Shown here: positions 11,901 through 55,535 of the stretch, piece by piece | Layout of the letters: every line of letters begins with the position of its first letter | Position numbering within the stretch: position 1 is the stretch's first letter | IMG/VR virus record: IMGVR_UViG_3300045988_165521 | Source of the DNA: a virus | Reading direction: 5' to 3' (one strand) | Length of the DNA: 64,000 nt | Program-made: the position numbers and the translations under genes | Notes under the pieces: model-generated | The model's input: only the letters and a program-made list of their open reading frames with translations | What the model was told of the DNA's origin: nothing | Database searches by the model: none

Positions 11901-14900
11901 TAATAAATCGATCTCACTTTCAAGCATACTTGGATTATCATAGTATTTATCTCAAGTTTGATCTAATATGCTATTTAAAATAGTATAGTTATCATATTTT
12001 GCAATATTATTTGGACGTAATGGAGCAGTTAAATTTGGAGTACGTGTAAAATAAGTATCCTCAATTCCTAAATTTCTTCTTGCATTTTCATAGAAAATAT
12101 AAGCTGAATTTTGTTTATAATCTCCTAATCCAACAATTAAGATATTATTTTTATTTGCCCATCTTGTAATTAATTCAAGATCAATTTTAGAAAACTGACT
12201 AATTTCATCAATAAATATGATTCTATTCTCAGTTTCTGCAAACATTGTAGCTGGATTTAATTTTAAATCCTTAAGAGTATATGTAGGTATTTCATCACTT
12301 CCAACAATTTTATTAATATCTGATTCAGAAATTTGTTTTCCCAGAATCTGTTCAATTAATTCTGCTTTCGTATATGATAAACCGTCATGCTCAATTGCTG
12401 CAGATAATCGATCTGTTTGTTTTCTTGTTGGAGCTACAGTTACAATTTTATATGCAGGCATCATTTTACGTAGCACATAAGCTACACCTTGTGTTTTACC
12501 TGTACCTGCTCCTCCAAATGTTGCAATAAAGTTTAATAACTGACTTTTATTCTGTATATAGCTATCATCTGATGTAGCTTTTGCTTTTGCAGATAAATAT
12601 TTAACAAATTCATTAAATAAATCTTTTCTTTCAGATGTTGCGTGTATTAATCTAATTGCATATTCTTGAGAAAAAATTGGAGCTTTATTAAATGATTCAT
12701 CAGTAATAACAGTTTTTAAGTTGTTATAGAAATTTGCAGAAGGATATGCAATTAAAGACAATAAATAAACTGCCTGATCATAATCAGTAATCGCTTCAGT
12801 ATCTCTAGCAAGCTTAGTAGGTCTTGCTGTAATTAAAGAAGTTGGTTCGAATAGTGAAGTGATGCGGTCAACTATTTCGCTATTAGATAATTTTTGATCA
12901 TCTATAAGTTGATAGATTTTGGTTTCTAATCTAATAGAAGCCTCTTCAAATTCTTTAAAATTACTCTCCTTAATTTCTCCTGATGGAAAATCTGATTCAG
13001 CAATTAATTGGTTAAGATCTAAGTTAAATAATGATGCAAACTTATCTTTGATTACAGAATTTTCATTATTAAGTAACAGATTTGTAAATCTCTGTCTCAT
13101 ATTAATAGCAATATCTTTCTGTTCTCTAATTTTTTGTGCATTATTATTTTCTGCAATATTTATTAATGTATCAAGTCTAACCTTAATTGCTTTAAGATCT
13201 GAAGACATATTAACGGCAGTTTCTGTATCAATTTCTGCAAGTAGATCTTTAGCTAATTTTTTCTTGAACTTATTAATTTGAGTGTTATATCCTCCATCTA
13301 TAGAAGCAATAACAAGAGAATTTAAAATATCAATAAATCTACTGGTTTCTTTAAGTCTAGTTAAAGCATCCTTATTATTAATAATATAATCCTCTAATGA
13401 ATCACTATTAAGGTAACTATTATACTCTTTTACAATCAAATTAACAATATTTTGACTAATTCCATTAGTAGATACTGCAAATTTTTCTAATAACTCATAT
13501 GCAGGGGATACCTTAATTTCAGATTTAAGATCTGAAACCTCATTAATAAAATCAATAAACGTTCTTCCAGATATTCTCGGAATAATTCCAGCTAATATTT
13601 CATCTGCACTTTGTCCTAAAAAGTCTGATAAATTTACTAATCCATCACTTTGTAAAAGATTTTGATATGCAGTTTTAATTTGATTTATATCTCCTTTTGA
13701 TACAATATCTTGAAAAACAGCTAAGTCATTTGCAATTCCAAGAGTCATTGACTCATAGCCTACACTATCACCTTCTGTTCTTTCTATATATGTATTAATA
13801 GCTTTTTCTCAATTAGCTGCAGCAATTCCTTCAGTAAATCCATTTACATAAAAATAACTCTTCATTAATGCAACAAGGTCTACATCTGTTACATCAGTAT
13901 ATAAAGAATTGGTCTTTAAATAGTTTAAGAAGTCAATATAGCTATTTGCATATGTATTTAAGGCAGCTTCATTATCAGCTATAAATGTATCTGGTCTAGC
14001 TAATACTTTTCTACCTTCTTCACTCAGCTCCTGAGTTAATCCAAATTCATGTCTTTTAACTAAGAAATCTTTGTAGTTTTCAGTTAATTGTAATTTAGTT
14101 TGAAGTTCAGATACTTCTTCATTAATTTCAACTCCTTCGGGAAGTTTAGAAATAGCTTCATCTATTTGTGCCTTTAGATTAGCAATTTCTTTATCAATGT
14201 TTTTAATACGATTAGTTTGAATAGTTTCACCTGGAGCATAAGCTTTACTTAAGTCTACAGTTTTTTGAGATACAGCTACTAAATCTTGTGCAATAGATTC
14301 ATTTAGACTATTAAATAAATCATACGCAGCAAACACCTTTGTTTTCTCAGTTGATTTAGAATATTTTTCATATTCTTCTTTAATCACAACTTTTTCATCA
14401 GATGTTAATTGATCGAAGTCTTTCTGATATCGAACTTTGGTAAAATTATGAATACCTAAGTCATCAACAAAAGCAGTTGCTAATGCAGGAGTAGCTGCAA
14501 ATCTTGCTTGCCCAAAATAATAGTCATTAAGTTCTCCAGAGACTATTTTATCACGTCTTGCTCTTAAATCATCAAGTTTTGCTTTTAGTCTTTGAAATTC
14601 TACATCATTTTGAGCTGCTGCTATTTTGTTATCCACATCTTTAGGAGTTTTAGGCTCAAGTTCAGTAGGAGTAATCTTAGATTCTAAAGCTACTTTAGTT
14701 TTTAAGATATCTTCTGTAAGATCATTCCAATCAGAGAATATTTTACTATAAACTCCAGTTTCAATTAACTGATTTTTAAGGCTTTCTCTCTGAATATTCT
14801 TAGCTAAATTTTCAGTTACATTAATACCAGTCATAGCTGATAATGCTTGTAACTCTTCATCAGAAATGTTTAGTCCCTCTTCATTGATAATACTATCAAT

Positions 14901-16874
14901 CCGATCGATGTAACTATTAATTTGGTTATAAATAACATCGTTCTGAGATTCTCCTTCTTTTGCAGATTCGTAATTAATTTTATATCCGTCAGGCTCTTTA
15001 ACAAGTTCAAACGATTTACCCGAAAGATTTCTACTTCCAAGAGCTCCTTTATCACGTAATCTTGTTAATTCTCTTTTTAAATCAGAGGTTTTGCCATTTC
15101 TTATTAAGTATATAATTTCTTGTAGAGAATCATTAGGTTTTTGAATTGCCTCATCATTTATAGAATTAATTCTTGAATCTCATTTTTCATGTAAACTAAA
15201 TACAGCACCACCAATAGCACCTCCCATAAATGCAGAAGTATAACGTGCAAACGCTTCTTCTGTACTTATACCAAAATCGAGTTGTTTATCCTTATCTACA
15301 ATACCCATTGTGTTTAACGCTGAGTAAAGTGCTTTTACCATGTCAGATGAAACTTCTTCTGCTACTTCTTCAACTCCTTCATTAACACTGTCATATAAAA
15401 TATTTCCAGGTTTCATTTTAGAGATTCGTTGCTGAATTTGGTTTTTAGTTTTCATAACCCAATTTGCAGCAGCTTTAGGAGAAACAATTCCTTTGTTGAT
15501 GTTTTCATTAGTTACTTTTTCAGCAACGTCTTTAATAACTCCTTTTACAGATGTACGGTCGAGATATGTATCTTTAAACCAAAAATCTTTAAAATAGTCA
15601 TTATTCATTAATGCAAACATTGCTCCCATTACAGATAACATTCCTAATCCTGCAACTCTATCAGATGCTCCAGCTTGCTTAAACGCATCATAGGCATCTG
15701 TAGAAGAGGTTCCTGCCATATAAGCTAAAGATAAAGCTCTACCTCATTTAATTGTATTTTCACTAACATTTTCTTTACCTACTATTCACTTCGGTATTTG
15801 CCCAATTACTCTTTGTTGAAATAATTGTCTTGAGCTATCTTCAACTAATTTTCCAATATTTTCTACGTTTCAGAAACTATTTCTTCCATAATCAGAAACA
15901 CTTCCATCAAATCTAGAAAACCAAGCTTGAATATCGGTAGCAGTTTGTGCTGATTTAGAGTTAGTTAAATCTCCCTTAGCAATACCTTCGATACTTCTAA
16001 ATAATACTGGGAATAATTTTCCTATTTCAACAGCAGCTGTCATACCACCATATACTTGTCCAACATATGGAATAAGCATTGGACCTACTTTAAATAAAAC
16101 CTTTGCTAAGGTACCTCCAACACTTTTATCTAATCCATCTGAATCAAAGAAATCATATTTATTCCATTTACTTCCATCAACAGTTAATGTATCAGAGATA
16201 TGTAAAATATCTTTCCCTGTAAGTGGTCTATTTCCTAATGTTTCATAAAATGGATCTCCCTCACTATTAAATTTTAAATCTCCTGCTTTATGTGAAACAG
16301 TTCTTCCATTTACTTCATGAGTTCCATCTTCATCTCATTGAGCTAATACAAGTGTAGGACGAGCTATAGCACCTAGTCCACCTCATTCATTAGGTGTTCA
16401 ATCCTCAAACTTACCAGTATCATAATTAAATATCTTATTTGTTTGTGCTACTTCACGTATCGACATAGTTGGATCAGAAGTTTCATATAGATTAACTATA
16501 CCTCGACTTCTTCTTTCAGGATTAGAGAATTTAACTAATCTTGAACTAACATCCAGTACATCGCCGCCGAGAGGTGCAAAATAATCTGCAGGATCATATG
16601 TAAATGAATCCATAGCAGTACTTGCTAAATTAGCTTCATCTGCACGATTATATAAGTCTAAAACGTCTTTATAATATGTATCGAATTTTTGATTATCAAA
16701 TTCTCCTCTATCGTTTTTAAACGCCTCTTGTATTTCTGGTATACCTTTATAATATTCTCTATCTTTAACATTAGAGTTATCAGGAGTTATTCCTAAATTA
16801 ACTAACTCTTGAACACTTTTGTCTGGCTGAAAAAATAATGCCGCCAGCCAATCATTTTTCTTCTGATCCATCAT
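8988..16874 (-). CDS. giant cargo/ejection-type protein, 2628 aa, with embedded SF1 helicase domain
   Basis: ATG at 16872-16874 is preceded by an in-frame TAA (16878-16880); stop TAA at 8988-8990. Nine track fragments share one frame, and all eight gaps were translated and are interrupted only by TGA. Hydrophobic Gly/Ala-rich segments occur in the N-terminal third (VGPMLIPYVGQVYGGMTAAV, RVAGLGMLSVMGAMFALM, FMGGAIGGAVFSL). SF1 helicase motifs lie at about 11560-12560: GGAGTGKT, IIFIDEISQ, VGLGDYKQ, VQGDEFEFAII, LTQRSTKG. Confidence 0.8.
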
Positions 16875-16877
16875 ACT

Positions 16878-18773
16878 TTAAAAATTAGCTTTTATGCTTT
16901 GTTGTTGTTTTTTCAGATTTGCCTGATTATATATATCTCTATATTCACTAGCACTTCCAATTTCATGATTAGATGCAACAGTTGCAAGTTTAGAATCATG
17001 CATAGGCATAAATATCATTCCTTTATACATTGAATTTTTATTGCCATGAAATATTTTTCCAAAGAAGCCTGGCTTAAAGTTATCAACCTTTTTGTCTGAT
17101 TTCTTTACTACATCTCCTCCATAATTTACATAAGTTGAATAGATATCAAATATTCTATCTTTATCTGGTCCATCAACATGTCATAACCAAGGAGAATTAC
17201 TATCAAAGTCAATAGCTTTATCACTAGCATAACCTGATAATCCAAAAAATACCATCATATCTTCAGGTCTGAATTTTCATCTATTAGTTTCAGTATCAAA
17301 CTCTAAGTCTAGATCATATTCATGTAATTTTTCTATCATTCTTTGTCTAGATACATTAGGATTATCTTCAATTCATTCCTCAAATTTTGTATATCGATCA
17401 TATGCATCTAAGTCAGGCTTATAAACTCCCATTTGTTCTGCATCTCGATCTTTTGGAAGTCACATTCTACTAAGTGAACTAGAGCCATCTCACACAAGTC
17501 TATTTAAATCAATATCTGATATTCTTTGATCTCCAAAGAAAATAGAATTTTTATCAACAATATTACCTATTTCAGCCTTATCCAATACATTTTTTAATGT
17601 ATTTTGAGTTACTTGTGTGCCATTCTTATCTTGTAATGGATAATCCCTAGTTACAATTTCTAACCCTCCTTTGGCATCAGATGTTGATAAAACTGCAATT
17701 TTAGGATCTACAACTCTACCTGCAGCAATAGTTTCTAGAGAGCTTCTATTAACATCTTTATCAGTTCCTCCAGAACTTCCACTGCCTGCTTTAGATGCAG
17801 TTGAATCATAATCTAAAGCTTGTGTATTTTCTACACTATGATTTGTATGTTCAACTACAGCAATTTGTAGTAATCGTTTTACATCTTCAGGATTACTTGG
17901 ATTAAAACCTTCAGCAGCTGCTTGAGCTCTTAAAACGTTTTTCATATTTTGTGGAAGAGTCTTATATAAATAATTAACAGCTAAATCAAGACTTTCTTTA
18001 TCATGATATCCCTGATTAGATGTACTATTTGATTCTGTAACTTTATATATTCCATCTGGTCCATTAAATCCTAATAATTGTTCAAATCCTTTTTCAATTT
18101 TATTCTGATATTTAGAAGTATATCTATCAAACTGATTTGAGGATTTATTAGTTCCAAACGCTCCAATAGTAGCTTTTACATAATCTACTATAGATTTCAT
18201 TCCAACTGTATTAGATAAATCTGTAAGGATACTATTATTATATGCTAGTTCTGGACGTTCTTCTCGAAGATGAATTAATTGAGAATTAGTTAATGCTTGA
18301 TATTTTTGTGGATTTTTATAATAAGTATCTGCAGATATAGTCTTAATACTGCCGTCTTTATTATACACATATAAGCTACCTTCATTACTAATTGCAACTT
18401 CAGACCCAGATCCTTCTTTAATAATTTGTTCTGATGCAGTTTCATGTAATTCATTATTATGTTTAATTCTATTAGCTAAAGATTGTAATCTAATTAAATC
18501 AGACATATCATATTGATTACTCTGTCCAGATACAAATAATTCACCTAAGTTTTGAGATTTTCTTAAAAAACTATTAGCTCTATCTAAGAAGTAATCTACA
18601 TCATTAGGTAACCCATTCTCTTTAAGAACATTAATAATTTCTTTTTGAATAAGTTGTTCTTCTTTATTTTCACTTGTTTTAGAGGTCTGAGTAGCAACTT
18701 GTGTAGGCTCTGCAGCATCTCTAAAAAAGGGGGTATAACTAATACCCCCGTTTTGATATCTCTTTATCTTCAT
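16878..18773 (-). CDS. cargo/internal virion protein, 631 aa (function unassigned)
   Basis: ATG at 18771-18773 lies just after the upstream TAA (18776-18778); stop TAA at 16878-16880. Five in-frame TGA were translated through in 16881-17492. N-terminus is MKIKRYQNGG. Confidence 0.75.
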
Positions 18774-18775
18774 AT

Positions 18776-21700
18776 TTATGACATCATTTTTAGAAATAAC
18801 TTAATAATGTTATTATTTAGTTCTCCAACAGCCTTATTGATAGCTTTTTGCTGGTCTAGATATTGTTGCTCATCTGTTTTACGTAAATATCTACCGCCAG
18901 ATTTATAACTATAAGGTATAAATCTTTGAATAGGAATTTGCTCAGGATTAGTATAATTAATTAAATATGGTTTTGTATCTAATTTGTTTCCTCCAAGCCA
19001 AAATCTTCTTTGAGATTGCTGATAAGGATTAACTAAAGCCTCAATTCCATATTTACTTCTATTAGTAGCAATATCTCCAGAATATTTGTAATTTAAATAA
19101 TCATCGATTTTCCAACCACTATATTCTGGATTTTTACCCTCATTCTGTTGCCAATTATAGAACTCATTAATTTTACTATTTCTAAAATTAGTAAACCAAT
19201 TACTGAAATCTCCAGCAGCCTTTTGTTGTGCTAATTGAGCTTGTAAAGCTTGTTTTTCATTTAGATCCTTGGCATAGTCTCCTCTTAACTGATAAATAAG
19301 ATTCTTAACATTTTGAGTTTGTTGCGTAATCTTATTAGCATCAGCCATATCTAACTGAGCTAAACCTTGTGCTCAACGGTTTCTATTCTCATTAGTTATC
19401 TGAGTTCTAATATTAGCGTATTGTTGTTTTTGAGCAAGTAACTTATCATTATATTGATCTATCATTTGAGAAAATTTAGCATCTCTTTCTCCTTCTAATT
19501 GATCAACATTCATATCTCTCATAAGTCTTTCTGCTAATACTTTATTTGGATCACTAGTCGATGTCTTATATTGACGCATACTTTTAATGCGATCATTATA
19601 CATTCTATGCAACCCATTATCACTAAATCTAGAGTAAAACTCAGTAGGCATTTGTTGTTGAGAACCTATCATTCCTTTACGAATGGCATCTTTCATTTTT
19701 TGGGTAGTACGATTGATACCTATTGTAGAAGTAATAAAGTCTCCTATTCCCATTACCATATCAGGATTAATATTAAATCCTTTTCCTTTGCCATGTCCAA
19801 AAGCTGTATAATCAGAGTTATCTGTATTATATGAGGATCTGTTTAAATTAGACAAAGTTCTACTAGTAGAATCATTAAGTAATTCTTCTTTTGAATCTAA
19901 CCTTCCTTTAAACCCAAGATTATTATTAATTTGAGCCATTTTAGCATCATTTAAAATTGAATTATACTGATTCCTCACTACAGTATTTTGAGGTGATTGA
20001 ACAGCTTTATTTAAGCTTGTAGAAGCACGTTTAATAGGAGTTCCAACAACAGCAACTGGATCTACTTGTACATTAATCGGATTATTATTTTTATCTAGCA
20101 TATAATCAGCTACACTAGTTCAATTTTGATCTATTGGAGTACTAAATGTAGGATACTTAGTACCAGGTTGTGCTTTTATAATTTTACCGCCTTTTTTATA
20201 AAATACTGGATTATTCTCTGGTTTATAATACCAGAGATGTTGTGGTTGATTACTAAATATTCCTAAGTTAGGAGCTAAGTTAGAATAGATTGGCATTGTA
20301 ATAGGTCTCCGTTTTAGAGCTGTAACAGATGTAAACATTTCAGGTCCTCCGAAAAATCTTTGAACTTGAGAAGTTTGTTTATCTACATAGTTCTTAAAAT
20401 AAGGATTACTTCTATTAGTTTTTGCATCTCTAGTAGCAGCAGTCTTATTCCAATTTCACCAACCCATATCATCTGGATTTCTATAAGTACTAGGAAGTTC
20501 ATCATATTTAAATTGTCCTGTATTAAGTCCTTTACCTATTGAAGACTTCCAAGGTTTTCTCCAATTGAAATTTACATTAGAAGAACGTTTAATACCATAC
20601 TCAGAAAGTAAGTCAGTAACATTATCTGTTTTAGCTTTACCTAATTTTCCAATAATTATTTCCTCTAACTTTTCAGTTTTTTGATTTTTTGGAAGTGAAT
20701 TGACCGACTCAATCTCAGAACGACCTAATTTAATGGTAGGAAGATTTTTGTTATTAGTTGGTTTTAAAGTAACCATATCAGAGTTTCCTCCTTTTAATTT
20801 TGCACTTCCTGTGTTACGTTTTAAATTAGCAAAACCTCTAACTCCATTTAATACAGTACGAACATCTTTAATAGTTCATTTACCATCTTGAATATTTTCT
20901 CATGCAGTTGCTAATCCAGATGCAGCACTTCCAAAACTAACTCCTCTAGTTGCTCACTTAACAGCATTTGCGACAGCCTTAGATTTCTTTAAAGCTTTAG
21001 CTATTTTTGCTGCCTTAGCTCCTGAGCCAATCCCAGGAAGTAAAGTAGCTGCATCTAATCCTAGATTAAGTGCTAAATTACTAACATCGCCTCAATCTAA
21101 TCCATCTCTAGCAATATCTGCTCCAAAACCAGTTAATGAACCTACTGCACCAACTCCAGCTCCAGCAACATTGCCAAATCCTGGTACAAAAGTAGCACCT
21201 AAAGAAGCAGCATCTGCAACTAAAGCTGCAATTTCAGCTTTGTCAGCAGCAGTTAATTGTGTACCATCTCCAATAGTTTTTTCTTCTCCAGCAGCGCGAA
21301 GTTTTTTATCTGATTGTTGAATTGCTTGTTTACTAGCTTTTGCACTATTAACTCTATTTGCAGCAACTCCTCCAATTTGATATTTAATAACTCCTCCGTT
21401 TTTATTACTTGGAACTCTATAAGCTAAACCTAATTGTTCTAAGCCTTCAGGAGTAGTAATACTTCTTAGAGCAGAATTACCTCCTGTTCCTGAATATTGC
21501 TGTTGATACTTACCAAGCGTTTGAGTTTTAATTAAATCCTGAAATAATTGATATAAATCAGGATATTTTTGTCCAATAATTGGATTAAACTTAGCATGAC
21601 GAGTACTAATTGTAGCTATATATGGATTTCTAATAATATCACTAATATATCCCTTAACTTCTGGATCTCTTAAGATTTCAGGATGTTGCTCAATATATTG

Positions 21701-23386
21701 TCCTAAACGAGAATCAATATTCCAATAATAATTTCTCATACTATCTTCAGATCCAGGTAAACGACTATTTAATGTATAGTTATCATTTCCTGGGTTTTCG
21801 TCATGAAAATAGTATAATTGAGTTTGAGGATTATAATACAATGTAGCTCTTGTTTGAGGATTTGAAGCATCTCCAGTACTTGCTACTTCTTTATATCCTC
21901 CAGTATTTCCTATAGTATAGTAACTATTAAAAGCAGTTGTAGGATTATTTTCATAGTAAGAATTAACTATATTTGGATCTAATTGCTCTTGTAAAGTATT
22001 ATTATAATTAATTCTTTGTTTAGTTAAAGGATCAATATATACTCTTTCTGCTAAAGTTCTTAAAGGGTGTCCATAGGGATCAAACTGAGAAGAATCTTCA
22101 GGATTGTAATTAGGAAAATAATCATAAACTAAAGGATCACCTGCTTGTCTAACATAGTTACCAGTTAGATCTGCAGCATATCGATTTGGTTGAAAATACG
22201 GGGACCACATTGGATTACCTTCTGAATCAACAGAAGTACTAAACCATGGAGATCTAGAACGATTTTCATCCCAATATTGTTTAATAATTGAAGAATTACC
22301 AGCAGTTCTCTTATTATCTGCTACAAAATCTAAATACTTTTGAATTTTAGATAAACTATCTTGGTCATCACCCCTATATACTTTTCCATTAATAACAAAT
22401 AAACCAGAGTCATCTGGAATATAATCCGCATAACTTCCATATTTTCTTTTAAATTCATTATTAAGTCATGCATCTCCAGTTCCAATATATGATAATAATT
22501 CTGGATTATTTATAGTTACATTCCCATTTGAATCAACGTTAAATAGGTTATGGTACTTATCATAATCTCATCCTGCTTTACTTCAGTTTTCTTTTGTTTT
22601 CTTAAGTTCTTCTTGTGCAGGATCTACTTCTTTTTGAGCTTGAACAGGTTTACTTCCTCCTAAAAAGATACCAATATCATCTAATGCCATAGCATCTTCA
22701 TCCGTCCAATTTCCTTGTTCAAGCCTAGATATAATATCTTCTATGCCTTGCTCACCATATTTATTGTAAAAGTCTATATAAGCTTGCTTATCTAAATCAT
22801 TATAGCCTTTAAATTGATCATTATCCCCATAACCTGCAATATCTTTTAGACTACGAAGTCTTCTAGTTGCTTTTAGATTATTAGCTCCATTTATATAAAC
22901 TCTATTTCCATTTACTAATTCAAAATCTCCAGTATCTTTATTACGCTTATATTCCATAGTAATATCACTAGACCAATCTCTAATATTAATTGGATCTAAT
23001 GCTTCTACTGGCTTTTTATATTGAAAATCCTTTAAAGCATGAACTGCATTTCTTGCAGTATTTTCTTTTCCCCTTCATAGATTTCCAAAACTTCTGCCAA
23101 GTCTACTTCGACGTTTACCTAAACGTTCTGCTTGATTATTAGTAACATCAAACTGTACTCCTTCTAATCTATCGGCACTAGAATTATATGATAAATTAGC
23201 ACCTGATCTTAGAGCATCAGTTATTTTACTAAATTGATATGCAGTATCTTGATCTAATGTTTTTCCATAAGAAGACATCTGATTTAGAAAATCATCATCA
23301 ACCTGATATTGATTACCATCTATAGTAAAAGTGCCGTATTTTTGAGGAGTAGAACCACCTTGTTGATATTTAATTACTTGTGCCAT
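18776..23386 (-). CDS. giant cargo/ejection-type protein, 1536 aa
   Basis: ATG at 23384-23386; stop TAA at 18776-18778. Seven track fragments share one frame, and all gaps were translated and are broken only by TGA. N-terminus is MAQVIKYQQGG, with an internal VIKYQIGG at 21368-21391. A Gly/Ala-rich hydrophobic stretch (..LGATFVPGFGNVAGAGVGAVGSLTGFGADI..) is typical of ejection or tape-measure-like proteins. Confidence 0.75.
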
Positions 23387-23410
23387 TTTATCACACTTGC
23401 TTTATATATA

Positions 23411-23444
23411 AAAAGGGAGATTGATCATATCAAATCTCCCTTTT
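23411..23444 (-). terminator. hairpin terminator after the 109-aa gene
   Basis: GGGAGATTGAT-CAT-ATCAAATCTCCC (23415-23440, one bulge), flanked by A4 and T4. On the minus-strand RNA the stem is followed by TTTTTATATATA. Confidence 0.7.
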
Positions 23445-23461
23445 ATCTAATGATCATTAAA

Positions 23462-23791
23462 TTACTTTTTAGCAAAGAATTTATTTTTCATTTCCCCGCC
23501 ATTTTCTTTCTTAGCACATTTCTTGCGGCCTACCATCTTTCCACCTTTCTTAAATACAGGTTCTCCTTCAGGAACTTGTCCAACAGGACCTTGTGGTCCT
23601 TCGCTCATAGCTTGTTGTAAAAGAGCTAAGAAACCTTCACAGACTTGAGCCATTGCTTGACAGTCTTGCGTCTGTAATGCTTGAGCTGCCATTTCTGCTA
23701 ACATTTGTAGTGGATCTTGTCCACCTTGTGGACCAGCAGGTGCCGCAGGAACAGGAGCGGACCCGCCTTCTTGATACTTTTTAACTTTCAT
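23462..23791 (-). CDS. small abundant-looking internal protein, 109 aa, basic C-terminal tail
   Basis: ATG to TAA ORF with no TGA, visibly GC-richer than its surroundings. It has its own promoter-like element upstream and a terminator downstream. N-terminus is MKVKKYQEGG; the C-terminus reads ..PVFKKGGKMVGRKKCAKKENGGEMKNKFFAKK. Confidence 0.75.
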   Translation of the reverse strand: MKVKKYQEGGSAPVPAAPAGPQGGQDPLQMLAEMAAQALQTQDCQAMAQVCEGFLALLQQAMSEGPQGPVGQVPEGEPVFKKGGKMVGRKKCAKKENGGEMKNKFFAKK

Positions 23792-23859
23792 AATTTAAAT
23801 TATTTTAATTTTTATAGATATCTCATAACTCTATGATTGTCATATATTCATTTAATGCC

Positions 23860-23891
23860 CAAAGATAACACTTTAGTTCTTAATATCCAAA
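23860..23891 (-). promoter_or_regulatory. Bacteroidota-type promoter (-33 TTTG / -7 TAnnTTTG)
   Basis: The minus strand reads TTTG (23888-23891), a 20-nt spacer, then TATCTTTG (23860-23867), about 70 nt upstream of the ATG at 23791. Confidence 0.6.
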
Positions 23892-24071
23892 TAAAATTAC
23901 TAAAATTTTCATTTACACTAAATTTTTATGAAAACACTTGCTACATTAGCAATATTATATTATCTTTGTTCCACAACCCAAGAGTATAAAATGAGTCTAT
24001 TTCATTCTCTTTGGAGATGCTAGATTAAACATGAGGCAATATAGGGTTATAAAAGATAGTTAGTATCTTTT

Positions 24072-24097
24072 AAGGAGAGTAAGAAATTACTCTCCTT
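24072..24097 (-). terminator. stem-loop immediately after the DUF192-like gene
   Basis: AAGGAGAGTA-AGAAAT-TACTCTCCTT, a perfect 10-bp stem starting 10 nt after the TAG stop at 24107-24109. There is no U-run on the minus-strand side, so its role as a terminator is uncertain. Confidence 0.45.
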
Positions 24098-24106
24098 TTT
24101 CTTTAT

Positions 24107-24709
24107 CTATTTAGGAGATTCGATAAACTCACTTGGACGATTATCCTGTTCATTTATATATTTAAAAATCTTTTTTCCAAGTTTAGCATAATCAGAATCA
24201 GCTTTACTTTTATTAGCTCTTTTTGCTAATTTTATTAAAGTTCTAGAATTTTTTCTTGAGAAAATACGTTCGCCACCAACTAAATCCATTTGAGGTTTTC
24301 CATCAGATCCAAGAATATACATTTTATCAATTTCTTTTTCATCTATATCCTCTTCAAAGTCTAATTCGTCTCCAATCTGAATTCCAGAATTAGCATTAAC
24401 TTCTAATACATATTTAGTTCTTCCTTCTTCATCTTCAGGAGTAGAAATAATTGGTTCAGAACTATGAGCTTTACCTAATACTACATTATAAACTTCATCA
24501 TCTTGATTTATAAATACTAAATCAATATCGAATTCCATTTCCTCTGTATTAAATACTACTTGACCTTGATCTTCAGGCATTATAAATAACATACCCTCGT
24601 CATCATCCATAGATTCTACATTACCTAAACCCTGAATTCTTTCTTCTTCCGTTTCTGCTATTAGAACTTTATATTCTTTATCTGCTATTTCTATTTTTAC
24701 CTCTTTCAT
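24107..24709 (-). CDS. DUF192-like protein, 200 aa
   Basis: The ORF ends in TAG followed by a hairpin. The N-terminal half (KVLIAETEEERIQGLGNVESMDDDEGMLFIMPEDQGQVVFNTEEMEFDIDLVFINQDDEVYNV) fits the DUF192/COG1430 pattern (A.t...r..GLm....l..d.GMlF.f...FwMkn...pLDiiFid). Confidence 0.6.
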   Translation of the reverse strand: MKEVKIEIADKEYKVLIAETEEERIQGLGNVESMDDDEGMLFIMPEDQGQVVFNTEEMEFDIDLVFINQDDEVYNVVLGKAHSSEPIISTPEDEEGRTKYVLEVNANSGIQIGDELDFEEDIDEKEIDKMYILGSDGKPQMDLVGGERIFSRKNSRTLIKLAKRANKSKADSDYAKLGKKIFKYINEQDNRPSEFIESPK

Positions 24710-26052
24710 TATTTCACACTTTTAATTAGTCCACTTCTATCATCTGTATTCTTTAATAGTTCATGACAAACTAATTTTCCAGCTTCAATTGCAATTTCGT
24801 TGGATGAATCTTCTTGATATGCTTTATATAAAGCCTCAAGTTTATCAGTAAATTCTTTTCTAAGTGTCCATTCTTCCTTTTCAATTTCTGCTGTCTGAAC
24901 AATTCCTCCTTCAGATTGTGCTACTACAGGAATTCCTTTTTTAGTAATTTGATCTTTTAATTCTGGATTTACATTTTCTAAATGATGTTTATGTGCATGT
25001 AAGTTTCCTTCAGGAATTAAATTCATCTTACCTCCGAGTTGGAATTTTTGTGTTTCTGTAGATTGTGTTGGTCGTTTCTGTAAGAATGCTCTAGCTTCAT
25101 CTAATTCAGGAAATTTCATTCCGTTTTTAGCCAAGGAATACATATTATCTAATCCATTATAAGTATTGAAGTTTTTACTAGCAAGAGACTGACCTATTTG
25201 ATTATTCAGTCGCTTTTTACCTGCATCTGTAATATCTAAAGTAGTATTTTGCATTCTTCTAGCTCTAGTTATAGCATTTTGGCCTTTTCGATGAAATCCA
25301 AAGTCAAATAATCCAGCTTTTTTATTACTATATTTATCAATACTATTACTGATAAATTTCTTTGAACCACTATATTCGTTACTAATATCAGATGTATTAT
25401 CTACTAATTTATTAATACGCTTTCCTCCAATACCATTAATTAAATTTAATGCAGCTCCAGCAGCCATTCCAATAGGGCCAAGCATACTTAGACCATCACT
25501 TACCATTCCTTGTATTTGAGAACCAGTACCTTCAACACGATCTTTAGTTCCTCCAATAAGATTTCCTATAGTTTTAGCTCCAGTATTAATCATTCCACCC
25601 ATAGGATTAAATTGACTTACTACATTGTGTCCTATGTCTTTAACTCCAGACATTACTTGAGCAGTAGATCCAGTTTTCTCATTTCCTACAAGGGCTGTGT
25701 TAAGATTTCCAATGAACTGGTCTCCCATTTGAAAAGCTCCTCCAAATTTGCCATTTAGCTTATTTACAGTTTCTGCTCCAGCAAATGTATCATTCTGTCA
25801 ATTTCTAACAGAATCTACAGTTTTTTGTGAAAACATACCTTTTGCGGTAGAGAAAGGATTCCTTTTATCTGCATCAGAATCAGATTTAGTATCTTTAAAA
25901 TTTCCAATATCTGATTTGATTTTATTCATAGAAGCACTAATGAAAGCATTATAGTTTCCTAAGTTAAGACCAAGCTGTTTTAACATATCTGGACTAATAA
26001 TATTCCCAGAACTAACTCCTCCTATTTCCATTTTTTTTATTCTTTTATGCAT
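24709..26052 (-). CDS. virion/cargo protein, 447 aa (function unassigned)
   Basis: Fragments 25798-26052 and 24709-25728 share one frame and are joined through a single TGA (25798); the gap was translated and is open. N-terminus is MHKRIKKMEIGG, with an internal KFQLGG at 25030-25047. A Gly-rich central region is present. Confidence 0.75.
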
Positions 26053-29000
26053 AACTTTGAGTCATTAATGTTTGTAATGCAGTAATAATAACAAGTTTAT
26101 CACCTTTATATTTAACTCTAATTCTTGCATATTTATCTCGAACTTTAGTTGCCTTTAATGGAGATTCAAAATCATTAGAGCTTGTTTGTTCATAATATAT
26201 TGGTTGTACTTGGAAATACCAAGAATCTTCACTATAGTATATATTACCTAATCGTCTTCCATATTCTTTTATATTTAAACAATCTGCATGTACATTTAAG
26301 TAATATTCATTTCGAATTGGATCTCATGTAACTTCTGTTTTATATCCTTTAGATTCTTTATCTAAATAGATTTCTGGGAAATTAGCGTTTGTAGATTCAT
26401 TTTTATTAAAAGTTTTATTTCTATAAATAGCTCTTTTACTAAATTCATATACATCTCCAGTAATTTCTATTTCAATAGAATTTGGTTCAACATTATTAGA
26501 TATTATTACTAAATTGTCAAATATTTTATGAATTCCTTTTGGTTCATTAACTATAAATTCAAACTCAAAAGGTTCCTGTTTATTATATCATTTAGTAGGT
26601 AATATTTGATTTGTTTCATCACTATCAAAATAATTTATCTCATCAATAATGTTACTTCTACCATGTACGAAAATATTATATAATAGTGCCTTATTTCAAT
26701 CATCTTGATATTTCAACATGTCGAATTCTTTTAGCACCTCATAAGGAATAATAGCTCCAGCTGTATATGATCGTTCAATTCCAAAAACAATACAATTACT
26801 CATAAGATTTCCACTCTCATCTTCAGAAGGATTATCTTCTGATGAAGTTACAACATATGGAGTATATTTTACTTCAATAGTATAATATAAATAGCCTCTA
26901 TCCTCTTTTCTGTATAGATCTTTAAATTCTATTGAAAATGGAGCCGCATCCTTCTGTTCAAGATAATTAGCATAGATTATTTTCTGACGGTCCTCTTCTG
27001 ATTCAGCATCTATAGCATTTCCAACATTTTTATTTTTAATTTCAACCCAATTCTCACTTACTTCATCCATAAGCCAGGTTTCTTCATTTGCTTTGCATTC
27101 AATAAGTGAATCAGTTTTTATTTCATCTTCGTCTCAGTAATATCCTTTTATAACGACACTATTAACATTATATCCATCATATCCATCAACTGTGAAAGTA
27201 AACTTTGAGTATTCTCTATCAGAAGTAACATATTTTCCAGTTCATTCTTCTCCTACCTTTACAAGATCATCAGTTTTCCGAAGATTATTACTTATTATAC
27301 TAAATATTTTACTCTTAAGCAAATCAAAACTAAAATATGTATTATTTATATTTTCTGATAATAAAGGAACTCACGAATATCTAGTAACTCACATGCTACG
27401 TACTTCATTATAACATATATTCCAAATTTTATCATTATTATAAAAAGTGAACATAACATCATTTTTATAAGCATTAAAGTGAGTTTTAACATTTCTCGTT
27501 CCTAATGCTACTGTTTTTTCAAGTTCCTTAAGATTTATTTCATCATTAAGGAATCTTTGAATTGTAAAATCAGATATAAGTTCAAGACCTCTATCAGAAA
27601 ATCTCCAAATTTTCTTAGTATATGTATCAACACCATATACTGCCCTAGGAGTTCTTATAATAGAGTCTTTTCATATAGAACCATACATATCAGATATAAT
27701 TGTCATTTGCTTTTGTAATACTCCAGATCCATACATATGAATATTTTGCCCAGTAATAGTTTGAATAAGAGCTTTTTCATTTATTGGAACAATAGCTATA
27801 GCATGTTCAAATACAGTTAATAGATTTCCTCCTCAAGGAAGAATTTTTACTATACCTCCATATTGTCTATCTAAATCTTCATATGATAATCCTTGGAATA
27901 CCTTATATGAGTTCTTAAAGTTTCCATCTACCTGAATATCACTAAACATTATACGAGTATCAAACTCGTCAACCTCATAAGGTACATCTATGTGCTTATA
28001 ATTTCTTTTAAATCCTAGAGTAGTACTATATCCTCTATTATATAAGTTACTTTCTGGAATTTTAGCAGAAGATTTAGTAGACATACCTTGTATAGGATAA
28101 AATCCTCTTGGATTTCCCATTAATGCAATTTCTTCTGTATTAAACTCATCAATACTTCTAAGAGAAATATTATTATTAGATAATCCTTTAAATGTTACTC
28201 AACTTCCAATAGCTACTGCATTAATATCTCCAATATTTATATCATCCCAGTTTTCAGTATTTCTAATACCTTTAAAATTATCTTTTCAAGTATTAAAATC
28301 TACTATTGTATCATTTGTAGGAACTGTTTGAGAAGTGAAGTTTCTATGTAACCTAATGGTAGTTGTATAAGTAAAGCAATCACCACGATATAATATTGGA
28401 ATCATACTCCAATTAAATTCTATAGAATTACCTTCCACGTCTTTATAATCAGTAGTACAATCTGTAATATCTTTGTCTTTTATTACACTAGTATCTGTAG
28501 CATATCTATCAGATACTGCAAAGTAAGGAGAATTATCATCGATTCTTATTTGAAAATATTCCTTATTAAATGTTTCGGAGTAATTTTTTATATAAACATT
28601 ATATAATGATGATTTACCAAGTAAAGTGTTACATCCTACAAAATCAGTAAATACTCCTCTAACTAATTGAGCATCGCTTGATTCTATATCCTCTTTTCCA
28701 AAACAGGTTTGTTGTTTAATTTCTTCTTGCATTCCTGCTCTAGTACAAAAGATATTATCATTAATAATTTTCTGAGGAATATCCGAGTCTATATATAAAA
28801 GTTCGCTTGTTGTTTCTGCATTTGTACTTTCAACATTTGTTAAATCTAAGGTATAACTTCTTCCTGATGCGTTATATTGATTAAACTTGTATGCTTCTAC
28901 TAATTTATATCTATCTGAGTTAAGTAGAGATTGCATTTGCTTATCACACTTAACATCTGCTGATAATAATCCTGAATAGCTACAATTGTTACTATATATA

Positions 29001-30565
29001 AGTTTTGAATCATAATCGTTAATCAATACCTTATTTTTATTTACAAAAGATTCTGTTACAAGCTTTGGATTTTGGCCTCCTTCAGAAAGATCAAGACAAG
29101 GAACTCCACTTACAGTGTCAACTCCTATAGATAACCCAGAGAATAAAAATGTTGGAATACGCTGTTGCCTAACAAAGTAGTATCCCTTAATATTCAGTTC
29201 TTTAAGTTTATTAATTACAAATTCAGGGATTCTAATTTTTAATCCCAATGGCTTCACAGATTTTCCGTCATGATCAATAATAGTCTTATCTTTAGTAAAT
29301 CTAAATACTCCTCTTGTATTTTCTAAAGTTTCTAAAGATATAAAATCTTTATTTTCTATAGTTTCAGGATCTCTTAAGTCTATATTATAATCATAATTAC
29401 ATTTATTACTTGATATTATCTCTCCATTATCCCCTTTTTCTTTAAAATGATAAGTTGAAAGATTAAAATCAATACCTCTAAGATTATATACAGGAGATAA
29501 ATGCTCATCATTATATATAAATACTACTCCTAGTCTATAAATTTCTCCAGGGAAATATCCAAGTCTATAATATATATTATATGGAGAATAGTATTCTGCA
29601 GCAGTAATATCCCCTTTATAAATTCCATATTTATCTGTAATATATCCTATATCATGTTCTTGACATTCTTCTACATTAATATATAACGCAAGATTACTTA
29701 AAGTGGCAGAGTCTTCTTTAAGTTTTGAAACATTTGCAAAGAATAATCTATTTTGAACTTGTGCCTGGCTTTTTACAGACTCTACATAGTTATATTGTAT
29801 ATTTAAATCTTCTGCAGTTATGTCTTCAAGTTCTTCAAATCCATTAATGGTTATTGTTTGATTGACATCAGTTATTTCATAAGTCTTTTTTATTTTATGA
29901 AAATCTGTTTTAGAAATACCATTTACATCACAACTTGTTCTACTATAATATATATTTATATAACTAAAAGACGTATCTATATTCTTAAGATAAAGTATTA
30001 TAGATTTATCAGTACGTTCATCCATATAAGCTCCAACACAAGTCTTAGGATTTGATAAATCTCCTTTAAATACAGACACTATTCCTGATTCAGCAACAAT
30101 ATCAGTTTCATTATAGTCACTATCAGAATATTTTATATAAAATATATAATTCCCTCCTTTGAGAGTTCCAAAGTAATCTACATTTTTAAATTGAATCTTT
30201 GGAATTCTAGTAACGTTTCTAAATAACCTAGTTTGTTGATCTAATTCATTTTCTGTATATAAATTAGATTGTTTAATTTGGTTTCGATTTATAATTTTAT
30301 ATCTATTATTTTCTAATAACGCTACTCTAGTATTTATTATTCTAGGAGGATTTTTATCATCGTTGAATATTAAATTTGTACTTCCATCATAAGAACTTTG
30401 ACATTCTATGTCTATAGGATTTTCTAGATCTAATTTTAATTGAGAATTACTTACTGTAAAATCATCAATCTGATCATCAGATTTTTTTAAATTACGTAAA
30501 GGATTATACTCTCAAGCAATATCTCCAGTATCCTTGTACTTTTTTACTTTCAGTTTTATATCCAT
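26045..30565 (-). CDS. very large tail/virion protein, 1506 aa (function unassigned)
   Basis: ATG at 30563-30565 overlaps the upstream TAA (TAATG). Fragments 28286-30079, 27833-28120 and 26696-27070 share one frame. Gaps 30079-30565, 28120-28286, 27070-27833 and 26045-26696 were all translated and are broken only by TGA. Stop TAA at 26045-26047. Confidence 0.8.
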
Positions 30566-36143: not shown

Positions 36144-36581
36144 TTAATAGTACACTTTTGCTTCTTCAGTATATTGATCTATGAGTTTTTTAAGATATTT
36201 ATCAACATAGATTGGTTTTTCCATAGTTTCTTTATTATGCTTCATATATCTATATACTAGCTGGTTTCCTGTAAATTGAGATAATACAAAATCAATATTA
36301 TTAAATTTACCTCTTCTATATGCTTGTTTAAAGTCTTCATCTGCAATTTGTTTCATAGAAATTTCTCCATAATTCCCAAAACGCAGAGGTAGTACAAAGG
36401 TAACATTATTATTTATAATATCCAATAAGATCTCATAAAAACAGTCATCAAAAATCTTAGCAGCTAGATTCTTACGATCTTTATATCTATTTTTTACTCA
36501 TCTTCCTTTTAATAACTTAGGATTTAACCCATTATATAGTTCCCTAGAGTTAAAACCATGAGGAAACATTTTTTTATTCAT
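36144..36581 (-). CDS. small protein, 145 aa; possible IHF/HU-like DNA-binding protein (first of a pair)
   Basis: ATG at 36579-36581 overlaps the upstream TAA (TAATG). One TGA; stop TAA at 36144-36146. ..AAKIFDDCFYEILLDIINNNVTFVLPLRFGNYGEI.. is a weak fit to the HU/IHF pattern. Confidence 0.35.
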
Positions 36582-37270
36582 TAGTTAACAGGTTTAAATG
36601 ATTTCTTATATTGCTTTCTATCCCAACGTGTACGAGCATCAAGAATCTCATTCATTTCATTTTGCGAGATATGTTCAGGAACTCTGGCATCACTACAAGC
36701 TCTCAATCATTCTTGTTTAACTGCTTGAGCTATTTGAAAAGAATTACTATCTCTTAATACAAGACTCTTTTTATATAAATCAATATATGCGGCATATGCA
36801 GCTAACGCAGTTAATTCTTTATCTGTTATAAGTGGCAGTCCATCATCATCTACAATTACACCATGATATAGTACAGATACATTCGAATAATCTCTATCAA
36901 ACTCTAATGCATTATTTATCTCATTATAATTTAATAGTTTTCCTGATTGGTATAATGGATCTTTATTCCATTTTCAAGCTTCATTATATCTTTCATAATA
37001 AGCATTTTGAACTAATGGGAAGATACTAGTGTCTGAAGTAGATTGAAAGTCTTCAAATGGAATTGTTACAGATTCTATAAAAGATAAATTGCAAGGTAAT
37101 TCTAGTATTCTATTTGTAGTATCTCCTACATATCTATACATTCTAGAATGTTTATTACCTATTAACTGTAAACCATTTAAAACTATATCCTCAAAATTAT
37201 CAGGATTTATTGTAACCCCATATAATATATTGGCAAGAGAATATACAGAATTTATATTATTTAACTTCAT
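36581..37270 (-). CDS. structural protein, 229 aa (function unassigned)
   Basis: ATG at 37268-37270. In-frame TGA at 36974 and about 36700. The stretch 36581-36974 was translated and is open. Stop TAA at 36581-36583. Confidence 0.75.
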
Positions 37271-44174: not shown

Positions 44175-44621
44175 TTAATCTTTTTTATCTATTTCTTTTA
44201 TTTCTATGACTAGCTTTTGACGACAATCATCACATAAAAATCTTTTAGCTATTTTAAACATACTTTGACCAATTTCACCTGTTAAGTATTGATATTCTTC
44301 TCCATATGGTTTAATTTTCAATGCTGAACTAATATGCATTGCTAAATGACCTTTTTCATGATCAAATGTATTTTGAAATTCTTCAGCAGATGTTGTCAAT
44401 CCAATAACTACAATGGAACATTTATGTTTGAAGTTTGAATAGGTAATTCCTATATTATATTGGTTACTTCTTAATAAATTTTCTGCTTTTACAAGTTCAG
44501 ATCAACTACATCCTATTAGTTCTAATTCTTCTAGAATTTCATCTGTATAATAAGTATCTACTGCATAATATACAGTTACGTGCCAATCTCAATCCTCCAA
44601 ATAAATGTTCTGTACTACCAT
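44175..44621 (-). CDS. small HExxH protein, 148 aa (putative zinc metallopeptidase-like)
   Basis: ATG at 44619-44621. Three in-frame TGA (EDWDWH, CSWSEL) precede track fragment 44175-44399. Motifs are DHEKGHLAMH and a C-terminal CDDC. Confidence 0.55.
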
Positions 44622-55529: not shown

Positions 55530-55535
55530 AGTTTA

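What the first reader, a model, noticed from the sequence alone, without database searches (positions are those of the whole stretch)
18744..26052. Recurrent N-terminal K-Y-Q-x-G-G motif on consecutive cargo proteins: candidate capsid-targeting or processing signal
Four proteins in this block begin with the same short motif:
- MKIKRYQNGG (18744-18773)
- MAQVIKYQQGG (23354-23386)
- MKVKKYQEGG (23762-23791)
- the looser MHKRIKKMEIGG (26017-26052)

Related copies occur internally: VIKYQIGG (21368-21391), KFQLGG (25030-25047), FKKGGK (about 23540-23557), plus YKKGGK and YKSGGR in the 1536-aa protein.

The motif resembles, in position and partly in sequence, the T4 internal-protein capsid targeting sequence (MKTYQEFIAE, removed by the prohead protease). 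The invariant GG recalls GG|X processing sites, such as those used by adenovirus- and ASFV-type proteases and double-glycine leaders. I do not know of a described signal of this kind for crAss-like cargo proteins. It could be how proteins destined for ejection are recruited into the procapsid and/or trimmed.
Basis: inference. Interest (0 to 1): 0.65.

Follow-up and report, generated by a model that had tools for sequence, protein, structure and literature searches.

The report
Shared peptide tag on crassvirus cargo proteins
Several proteins that this gut crAss-like phage most likely carries in its head and injects into bacteria share a tiny conserved peptide (basic residues, an aromatic residue, then Gln-x-Gly-Gly) at their floppy ends; it looks like a common recognition tag that has not been described and could explain how these proteins are loaded, ordered or trimmed.

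Summary
The window is a crassvirus with every gene on the minus strand and TGA read as Trp. [KR][YF]Q.GG occurs 5 times in 20,528 residues (0.03 expected). All five lie in four adjacent genes between the muzzle gene and the virion RNA-polymerase genes, and three sit at residues 5-11.

Homologues were fetched with queries from which the motif had been removed. They keep it down to 23% identity: 115 of 120 homologues of the 631-aa protein have GG within the first 13 residues, and G9/G10 are two of only eight invariant columns. Ten syntenic lineages using three genetic codes keep it on the ~95-aa, ~1500-aa and ~620-aa proteins.

A second form, PV[FY][KR][KR]GG[KR], sits near C-termini. AlphaFold places both forms in disordered tails. 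Looser copies occur in the first cargo protein (C1) of crAss001, DAC15 and Suoliviridae.

My best reading is a trans-recognised short linear motif that tags ejection proteins for loading or positioning. Cleavage after GG is possible but unsupported: no conserved protease was found, and the T4 likeness is only positional. I found no published description. This is a new variant of a known kind, and the function is untested.

The parts
26045..30565 (-). Muzzle protein gene (1506 aa), the upstream boundary of the cargo module
   Evidence: Pfam crAss_MUZ, E=6e-28
24709..26052 (-). C1-position cargo protein, 447 aa. It has a loose N-terminal copy (KMEIGG), a Gly-zipper hydrophobic segment, and a KFQLGGKMN copy just before a conserved C-terminal domain.
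   Evidence: Weak match of the Gly-zipper segment to crAss001 gp45, E=0.005.
26017..26034 (-). KMEIGG, loose N-terminal copy (aa 7-12)
   Evidence: This N-terminus is variable in relatives.
25030..25047 (-). KFQLGG (aa 336-341), conserved as KF.xGGK[VM]N directly upstream of the domain IPEGxLHAHKHH..TKKGIPVV..AEIE
   Evidence: Alignment of 10 lineages; alignment A3
24107..24709 (-). DUF192 protein (200 aa), a conserved module member that lacks the motif in this phage
   Evidence: Pfam PF02643, E=8e-17. Syntenic.
23462..23791 (-). Small 109-aa protein: N-terminal motif, Pro/Ala-rich linker, helical hairpin, C-terminal motif, basic tail
   Evidence: AlphaFold: helices 27-63 at pLDDT ~82, both ends at 43-54.
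23762..23779 (-). KYQEGG, N-terminal copy (aa 5-10)
   Evidence: K5, Q7, G9 and G10 are invariant in 17 homologues
23540..23554 (-). FKKGG, C-terminal-type copy (aa 80-84), consensus GEPV[FY][KR][KR]GG[KR][LMI]V
   Evidence: P78, G83 and G84 are invariant. 26/30 homologues keep it.
18776..23386 (-). Giant 1536-aa protein with copies at the N-terminus, at a fixed internal site and near the C-terminus
23354..23371 (-). KYQQGG, N-terminal copy (aa 6-11)
   Evidence: Present in 8 of the 10 lineages whose cargo module was delimited, all but L020 and L040
21368..21385 (-). KYQIGG (aa 668-673), at the start of the conserved Gly/Ala-rich hydrophobic central region
   Evidence: The BLASTP alignments that reach this point carry a copy at the equivalent place in L047 (YQQGG, aa 633), L019 (YFQQGG, aa 462) and L020 (HQWGG, aa 485)
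20186..20200 (-). YKKGG (aa 1063), C-terminal-type copy
18893..18907 (-). YKSGG (aa 1494), C-terminal-type copy 38 residues from the end. Equivalents in relatives: YAKGGR, YKKGGK.
16878..18773 (-). C2-position cargo protein, 631 aa
   Evidence: AlphaFold mean pLDDT 74; residues 1-36 at ~30.
18744..18761 (-). RYQNGG, N-terminal copy (aa 5-10), continuing as GG[IV]xYTPF
   Evidence: G9/G10 are among 8 invariant columns in 37 homologues down to 22% identity. 115/120 keep GG.
8988..16874 (-). First giant vRNAP-module protein (2628 aa), the downstream boundary of the cargo module. It has no copy of the motif.
   Evidence: Homologous ORFs in relatives carry AAA_19/AAA_30 hits.

Best explanation
The peptide [KR][KR]-aromatic-Q-x-G-G, and its near-C-terminal form PV-[FY]-[KR][KR]-G-G-[KR], is a short linear recognition motif.

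It sits on flexible ends and inter-domain linkers of the non-polymerase ejection ('cargo') proteins of this crassvirus lineage. One common partner reads it in an extended conformation, so that otherwise unrelated proteins are recruited to the same place. The most likely place is the assembling head or the portal-tail axis, where they would be loaded and positioned for ordered ejection.

Shown:
- the motif's existence;
- its restriction to the cargo module;
- its extreme conservation;
- its terminal or linker position;
- its predicted disorder;
- its looser presence in C1 proteins of other crassvirus families.

Inferred:
- that these proteins are virion cargo (by gene position relative to crAss001 gp45/gp46);
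- that the motif is bound in trans;
- that binding serves packaging or positioning.

The partner is unknown. Whether the tag is later cut off after GG is open.
For: - Enrichment: 5 observed against 0.03 expected, all in four adjacent genes. Over 10 lineages, [FY]xxGG occurs at 2.05 per 1000 aa in cargo-module ORFs against 0.15 in flanking ORFs.
- Unbiased conservation: homologues found with motif-free queries keep the motif down to 23% identity.
- Synteny: MUZ, C1-like, DUF192, small, giant, C2 and vRNAP genes keep this order, with the motif in the same places, in genomes using the standard code, TGA=W or TAG=Q.
- Selection acts on the protein: the GG codons differ, and the Q can be a recoded TAG.
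- The most conserved segment is structurally disordered: residues 1-36 of the 631-aa protein have pLDDT ~30, and both ends of the 109-aa protein have 43-54. This is the signature of a motif bound in trans rather than a fold element.
- C1 proteins elsewhere carry aromatic-x-x-GG copies: crAss001 (FDTGG aa 17, FAEGG aa 260, FAYGG aa 559), DAC15 (six copies) and Suoliviridae (KYVGGG at the N-terminus, FAKGG, FASGG).
- Precedent: the 10-residue T4 CTS is sufficient to load foreign proteins into heads (PMC9026906).
Against: - No partner was identified.
- The vRNAP-module proteins, the bulk of the presumed cargo, lack the motif, so it cannot be a universal loading signal.
- In the crAss001 cryo-EM structure, the modelled parts of gp45 (214-245, 425-552) exclude its FAEGG and FAYGG copies. 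In the mature virion these copies are therefore not held in a symmetric, ordered site.
- An absolutely invariant GG with a free residue before it is also what a GG-specific protease site looks like.
- Cargo status of the four window proteins rests on gene position only. Profile comparison found no homology to gp46 or to the portal-binding domain of gp45.
Confidence: 0.45

Rival explanations
1. The motif is a proteolytic processing site. A GG-specific protease, phage or host, cuts after Gly-Gly. This removes ~10-residue N-terminal and ~10-40-residue C-terminal propeptides and splits the 1536-aa protein into modules, as T4 gp21 or the phiKZ/SPN3US prohead proteases do with internal proteins. The tag could target first and be removed afterwards.
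For: - GG is invariant in >140 sequences, the residue before it is free, and the positions at -5 and -4 show preferences. This resembles the narrow S1/S2 pockets of xGG-cutting proteases (own knowledge).
- Copies lie close to both termini and at a fixed internal module boundary.
- T4 Alt loses propeptides at both ends (PMC9026906).
- Zincin-like peptidases are proposed to process virion-packaged multidomain proteins (PMC5512222).
- The window encodes a 148-aa HEKGH protein in the head module (44175-44621). It has a weak SprT-like hit, and a homologue is annotated as a PolyVal metallopeptidase.
Against: - Pfam scans of all but five of the 37 window proteins found no clan CE, C39 or assemblin-type protease. 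The five not scanned were four collagen/fibre proteins and the small ORF 62459-62767.
- The HExxH gene is not a conserved companion. It is absent by tblastn from MT835470 and MT835492. No HExxH ORF lies in the 7 kb upstream of the scaffold/MCP genes of MT835470, which has the full motif set.
- The segment just after GG in the 631-aa protein (IxYTPFF) is as conserved as the tag itself.
- No proteomic evidence either way. The crAss001 MALDI peak lists do not even identify gp45 or gp46 in bands 1-10.
Confidence: 0.27
2. The motif acts after ejection. It could be an epitope that binds a host envelope or periplasmic component, or a clip by which the ejected, refolding proteins assemble into the trans-envelope channel (ejectosome). 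It would resemble the short binding epitopes in the disordered translocation domains of colicins.
For: - The motif sits on disordered, basic leading ends.
- crAss001 cargo is proposed to leave N-terminus first and to build a channel (PMC10172136).
- Motif-bearing proteins carry Gly-zipper or hydrophobic membrane-type segments directly after a copy.
- An SLT lytic transglycosylase gene sits in the same module in one lineage.
- The gp45 copies are unordered in the mature virion.
Against: - There is no similarity to TonB- or TolB-box sequences (own knowledge).
- No host partner can be named.
- Conservation of one motif across phages with presumably different hosts argues for a phage-encoded partner.
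Confidence: 0.18
3. There is no common function. The copies would be chance, compositional bias of Gly-rich proteins, or a translation-start effect of A-rich lysine codons.
For: - GG dipeptides are 2.8-fold enriched in the cargo ORFs in general.
- MK.K starts are common in AT-rich genomes (own knowledge).
Against: - The specific pattern is enriched about 13-fold beyond flanking ORFs.
- It is invariant over 23%-identity distances, with varying codons.
- It is also found internally and near C-termini.
- Shuffles give 0.03 copies.
Confidence: 0.03

Closest known systems
T4 capsid targeting sequence (CTS) of internal proteins IPI/II/III and Alt
   Same: A peptide of about 10 residues at the N-terminus, shared by several otherwise unrelated proteins that are packed in the head and ejected. 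Alt also has a processed C-terminal end (PMC9026906).
   Different: - No sequence relationship beyond K-x-Y-Q.
- The T4 CTS ends in a Glu site cut by the gp21 serine protease and binds the gp22 scaffold core.
- Here the invariant feature is GG, no gp21-like gene is seen, copies also occur internally, and cleavage is unproven.
crAss001 cargo proteins C1 (gp45) and C2 (gp46)
   Same: Same genomic slot between the muzzle and vRNAP genes. gp45 has a basic N-terminus, three aromatic-x-x-GG copies and a Gly-zipper transmembrane segment like the window's 447-aa protein.
   Different: - No detectable homology of the 631-aa protein to gp46.
- No detectable homology of the 447-aa C-terminal domain to gp45 residues 401-571.
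- This lineage has extra module members: DUF192, a ~95-aa protein and a ~1500-aa protein.
- gp46 has no GG (FVSGAKFRPF).
Encapsulin cargo-loading peptides
   Same: A short conserved Gly-containing peptide on a disordered terminal extension of cargo. It is bound in trans by the inner face of an HK97-fold shell (own knowledge).
   Different: The consensus is different (GSLxIGSLKG-type), it is usually C-terminal, and there is no evidence here that the capsid protein is the receptor.
GG-directed cleavage signals (adenain/ASFV pS273R/Ulp1-type sites; double-glycine bacteriocin leaders)
   Same: Invariant Gly-Gly. The N-terminal copies would release a short leader.
   Different: - The register differs: the aromatic residue is at -5 and Q at -4, instead of M/L/I at -4.
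- The leader is 9-13 basic residues, not the 15-30-residue LSxxELxxIxGG.
- No clan CE or C39 peptidase was found in the window.
Staphylococcal phage 80alpha capsid and scaffold N-terminal motif cut by the host L27 protease Prp
   Same: Several head proteins share one conserved N-terminal peptide (own knowledge).
   Different: That motif mimics a host ribosomal protein and is cut by a host cysteine protease. No host counterpart is known here.

Membership tests
T4-type capsid targeting sequence | N-terminal ~10-residue peptide shared by several internal/ejected proteins | tested here: met
   Three proteins carry the strict motif at aa 5-11 and a fourth a loose copy. It is conserved in relatives.
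T4-type capsid targeting sequence | Ends in an L/I-x-E site and is removed by a gp21/assemblin-family prohead protease encoded by the phage | tested here: not met
   The tags end in GG, not Glu. No such protease appeared in Pfam scans of the window proteins. Only 64 kb of a ~170-kb genome was seen.
T4-type capsid targeting sequence | The peptide alone is sufficient to load a foreign protein into the head | not testable with these tools
   Needs a reporter-fusion experiment.
Double-glycine (C39) leader peptides | 15-30-residue leader with hydrophobic positions at -4, -7, -12 (LSxxELxxIxGG) and a cognate C39-ABC transporter | tested here: not met
   The leader is 9-13 residues, basic, with the aromatic residue at -5. 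No C39/ABC gene is in the window.
Clan CE (adenain/pS273R/Ulp1) GG-X sites | (M/L/I)-X-G-G|X consensus and a clan CE cysteine protease in the genome | tested here: not met
   Position -4 is Q in 54/60 (C2) and 14/17 (small protein) distinct N-terminal windows, or K/R in the C-terminal form. No such protease domain was detected in the window.
Crassvirus cargo proteins (C1/C2 of crAss001) | Encoded between the muzzle gene and the vRNAP genes | tested here: met
   crAss_MUZ at 26045-30565. Giant vRNAP-module ORFs lie downstream. crAss001 gene order.
Crassvirus cargo proteins (C1/C2 of crAss001) | Sequence homology to gp45 or gp46 | tested here: not met
   hhalign probability <1% for the 631-aa family against gp46 and for the 447-aa C-terminal domain against gp45 residues 401-571. 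Only a Gly-zipper segment matches, E=0.005.
Crassvirus cargo proteins (C1/C2 of crAss001) | Physically present in virions and ejected | not testable with these tools
   No isolate or proteome of this lineage is available.
Short linear motif (SLiM) | 3-10 conserved residues inside an intrinsically disordered, otherwise fast-evolving segment, recurring in non-homologous proteins | tested here: met
   pLDDT is ~30 and 43-54 at the motif sites. G9/G10 are invariant while the flanks vary. The motif is present on four unrelated proteins.

The most novel reading that the evidence does not exclude
The two forms of the motif are complementary connectors. The C-terminal-type copy (PV[FY][KR][KR]GG[KR]) of one protein would pair with the N-terminal-type copy ([KR][KR][FY]QxGG) of the next. 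This would chain the ejection proteins head-to-tail in gene order: C1-like, then small, then giant, then C2. Such a 'cargo train' would fix the order in which unfolded proteins thread through the portal and tail.

The small 109-aa protein, a helical hairpin with one copy on each flexible arm, would be a dedicated coupler.
Probability: 0.08. Interest if true: 0.85.

Novelty: new variant of a known kind. Interest (0 to 1): 0.6.

Why it matters
Crassviruses are the most abundant phages of the human gut. They carry several megadaltons of protein cargo, and the 2023 structural atlas could not say how that cargo is selected, arranged or released.

A conserved 6-10-residue tag shared by the non-polymerase cargo proteins gives a concrete handle. 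It can be mutated, fused to reporters, used as bait to find the receptor or protease, and searched for by mass spectrometry in cultured relatives. DAC15 C1 has six copies and crAss001 gp45 has three.

It would also be a practical annotation marker for otherwise unrecognisable cargo genes in metagenomic crassvirus genomes. If it is sufficient for loading, it would offer a way to package foreign proteins into Bacteroides phages.

Tried and rejected
- **PHROGs and Pfam on the four motif proteins:** nothing useful.
- **Megablast of the block against GenBank phages:** no match.
- **First locus scan with an alignment:** it used the motif itself as a search pattern, so its hits are biased for that protein. 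I replaced it with motif-free protein queries.
- **631-aa protein as a gp46 homologue:** rejected by hhalign. Only the PF.Y stretch after the tag looks alike by eye.
- **C-terminal domain of the 447-aa protein as the gp45 portal-binding domain:** my by-eye alignment was not supported by hhalign or by a profile search of PDB sequences.
- **Foldseek of the 631-aa model against the PDB:** no hit.
- **DUF192 as a clue:** the PDB relatives are uncharacterised and the literature is silent. The 120 listed homologues were all short and close, so no natural motif-DUF192 fusion could be folded.
- **crAss001 2018 MALDI peak lists:**
  - Band 3 is gp47/gp50 and band 4 is gp49.
  - gp45 and gp46 are not identifiable in bands 1-10, and bands 11-13 are not held.
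  - None of the intact or post-GG N-terminal masses is present, so the data are uninformative.
- **HExxH protein as the cognate protease:** weakened by its absence from distant motif-bearing relatives.
- **Rfam and tRNA scans of the window:** empty.
Full report
**What the window is**

All long ORFs lie on the minus strand, and in-frame TGA codons interrupt them. Reading TGA as Trp gives a gapless array of 37 genes. Markers place it in Crassvirales:
- Crass_capsid on 41113-42522.
- CrAss_Ring_1 on 36581-37270.
- crAss_MUZ on 26045-30565.

Near-identical IMG/VR contigs reach 168-174 kb. The GenBank phage collection holds no close relative by megablast of the cargo block. Its only relatives by protein search with the 631-aa protein and the capsid protein are two unannotated human-faecal scaffolds, MT835470 and MT835492. 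These are ~27% identical in the 631-aa protein and ~53% in the capsid protein.

**The observation**

With TGA=W the four proteins are:
- 447 aa (24709-26052)
- 109 aa (23462-23791)
- 1536 aa (18776-23386)
- 631 aa (16878-18773)

A DUF192 protein (24107-24709) lies between the first two. FKKGGK is the one small exception, at 23537-23554.

Strict [KR][YF]Q.GG is expected 0.033 times in the 20,528 residues of the window. It is seen five times, only in these four genes, and three times at residues 5-11. P is about 1e-11 for the N-terminal coincidence. The looser [FY][QKA].GG gives 8 hits in the 2,723 cargo residues and none in the other 17,805.

**Conservation, tested without circularity**

One locus scan turned out to use the motif itself as its search pattern. 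I therefore queried the protein database with the 631-aa protein lacking its first 19 residues.
- Of the 120 listed homologues (99% down to 23% identity), 115 have GG within the first 13 residues and 109 have [FYH]xxGG.
- The five without GG are N-terminally truncated gene calls. For P0079, the locus shows the true start MKIKRHQVGG upstream.
- In a 37-sequence alignment, G9 and G10 are two of only eight invariant columns.

The 109-aa protein was queried with its motif-free middle.
- 25 of 30 homologues keep the N-terminal copy and 26 of 30 keep a C-terminal copy.
- K5, Q7, G9, G10, P78, G83 and G84 are invariant.

Codons differ between lineages (GGG GGT, GGC GGG, GGA GGA; TAT/TTT/TTC/CAT). In one TAG=Q lineage the residue before GG, a Q, is written TAG. 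Selection is therefore on the peptide.

**The module**

I examined the neighbourhoods of seven diverse 631-aa homologues, the two GenBank scaffolds and three IMG/VR lineages. They share this gene order:
- muzzle
- ~450-580-aa protein
- DUF192 (one lineage has an SLT gene upstream of it)
- ~95-aa protein
- ~1450-1550-aa protein (some ~950)
- ~620-aa protein
- giant vRNAP-module proteins

They use the standard code, TGA=W or TAG=Q.
- The small, giant and ~620-aa proteins almost always begin with [KR][KR]-aromatic (or L/M)-Q-x-G-G.
- The small protein ends with GEPV[FY][KR][KR]GG[KR][LMI]V.
- The giant protein has a similar copy 40-70 residues from its end.
- Where alignments reach it, the giant protein carries an internal copy at the equivalent place (window aa 668; L047, L019, L020), at the start of its Gly/Ala-rich hydrophobic region.
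- The post-muzzle protein has KF.xGGK[VM]N immediately before a strongly conserved C-terminal domain, IPEGxLHAHKHH..TKKGIPVV..AEIE.NEIIF.

Over ten lineages, [FY]xxGG occurs 61 times in 29,709 cargo-module residues. It occurs 6 times in 39,155 flanking residues. The vRNAP-module proteins and the muzzle have none.

**Structure**

AlphaFold with a 37-sequence alignment folds the 631-aa protein reasonably (mean pLDDT 74). It leaves residues 1-36, the best conserved part, at pLDDT ~30.

The 109-aa protein is a helical hairpin (27-63, pLDDT ~82) with both motif-bearing arms at 43-54.

Strong conservation, disorder and recurrence on unrelated proteins together define a short linear motif read by a partner in trans. 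The motif is not a fold element.

**Other crassviruses**

The first protein after the muzzle (C1) carries looser aromatic-x-x-GG copies:
- crAss001 gp45: FDTGG aa 17, FAEGG aa 260, FAYGG aa 559.
- DAC15: six copies.
- Several Suoliviridae: KYVGGG at the N-terminus; FAKGG, FASGG.

The second protein (C2, gp46-like) lacks GG there.

crAss001 gp45 and gp46 are experimentally shown virion cargo. gp45 residues 425-552 bind the portal wing and residues 214-245 bind the tail barrel. gp45 is proposed to exit N-terminus first (PMC10172136). Its motif copies lie outside the modelled segments.

Homology of the window proteins to gp45/gp46 could not be shown. The one exception is a Gly-zipper transmembrane-like segment (E=0.005). 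'Cargo' is therefore an inference from gene position.

**Mechanism**

I favour a shared address or docking tag for loading and positioning of the non-polymerase ejection proteins (0.45).

The main rival is a GG-specific cleavage site, possibly combined with targeting as in the T4 CTS (0.27).
- The invariant GG and the near-terminal placement at both ends fit cleavage. T4 Alt loses both ends.
- No conserved protease could be found. The only peptidase-like gene in the window is a 148-aa HEKGH protein at 44175-44621. It is missing from distant relatives that have the full motif set.
- Pfam scans found no clan CE, C39 or assemblin-type domain. Four fibre proteins and one small ORF were not scanned.
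- Published crAss001 gel-band peak lists were re-analysed but do not resolve gp45 or gp46.

A post-ejection role, in host-envelope binding or ejectosome assembly, remains possible (0.18). Chance or composition is excluded for practical purposes.

**Comparison and novelty**

Functionally the nearest analogues are the T4 CTS and encapsulin cargo-loading peptides. By sequence and by defining features this motif is a member of neither. It is also not a member of the double-glycine leader family or the adenain-type site family (see membership tests).

Full-text searches found no description of such a motif in crassviruses.

I rate it a new variant of a known kind: a shared terminal signal on phage internal proteins. 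The existence and conservation of the motif are solid. Its function is still inferred.

Noticed in passing
window 1-64000, minus strand: Every gene in the window needs TGA read as Trp: 11 in-frame TGA in the 1536-aa gene and 5 in the 631-aa gene. Distant relatives of the same module use TAG=Q or the standard code. No suppressor tRNA gene lies in the window.
   Followed up: partly
window 59946-62490 (-), gap 60990-61311: The portal gene appears as two ORFs in different frames (392 aa, and 347 aa with a P22_portal hit), separated by 322 nt without an ORF. This could be an intron or another intervening element. There is no Rfam hit at gathering threshold.
   Followed up: partly
window 44175-44621 (-): A 148-aa protein with an HEKGH zincin motif and a weak SprT-like hit lies between the portal and scaffold/capsid genes. 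A homologue in Bacteroides phage C3_41T2LP is annotated as a PolyVal metallopeptidase. It is present in some Steigviridae (cr116_1, IAS virus) but not in MT835470.
   Followed up: partly
window 16770-16874 (-), and the equivalent ORFs in L019, L040, L046, L048-L052: The first giant vRNAP-module protein has its own conserved N-terminal peptide, K-x-N-D-W-[LFI]-[AV]-A-x-[LI]-x-x-P (MMDQKKNDWLAALFFQPD here). It is unrelated to the GG motif and may be a second terminal signal.
   Followed up: no
window 24709-25050 (-): The C-terminal ~110 residues of the 447-aa protein form a strongly conserved domain (IPEGxLHAHKHH..TKKGIPVV..AEIE.NEIIF..AIEAGKL..NT.D) with 21 invariant columns. There is no Pfam, PHROG or PDB-sequence match.
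   Followed up: partly
L060 (DAC15) 10574-13072; L021 (crAss001 gp45) aa 372-428; L048 4377-4616: A small Cys-containing module, GG(G)IHIKK-NRGKFT-YCGG-VT..C..G.NS..P..RKRA.FA.NARKW..(E)GG, is duplicated in DAC15 C1. It occurs once in crAss001 gp45 and as a free-standing 79-aa ORF in one epsilon-like lineage.
   Followed up: no
window 53160-59009 (-): Two large proteins (789 and 1157 aa) share an N-terminal domain and carry collagen-like G-x-y runs (GPQGPKGDSG, GDKGDIGPIGPSGTDG). They are probably head or tail fibres.
   Followed up: no
L047 2961-3920, L048 3357-4370, L050 236-1255: In some lineages the DUF192 protein is 320-340 aa. Its N-terminal extension itself contains an aromatic-x-[DE]-GG copy (NYGEGG, KHADGG, AFGEGG).
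   Followed up: no
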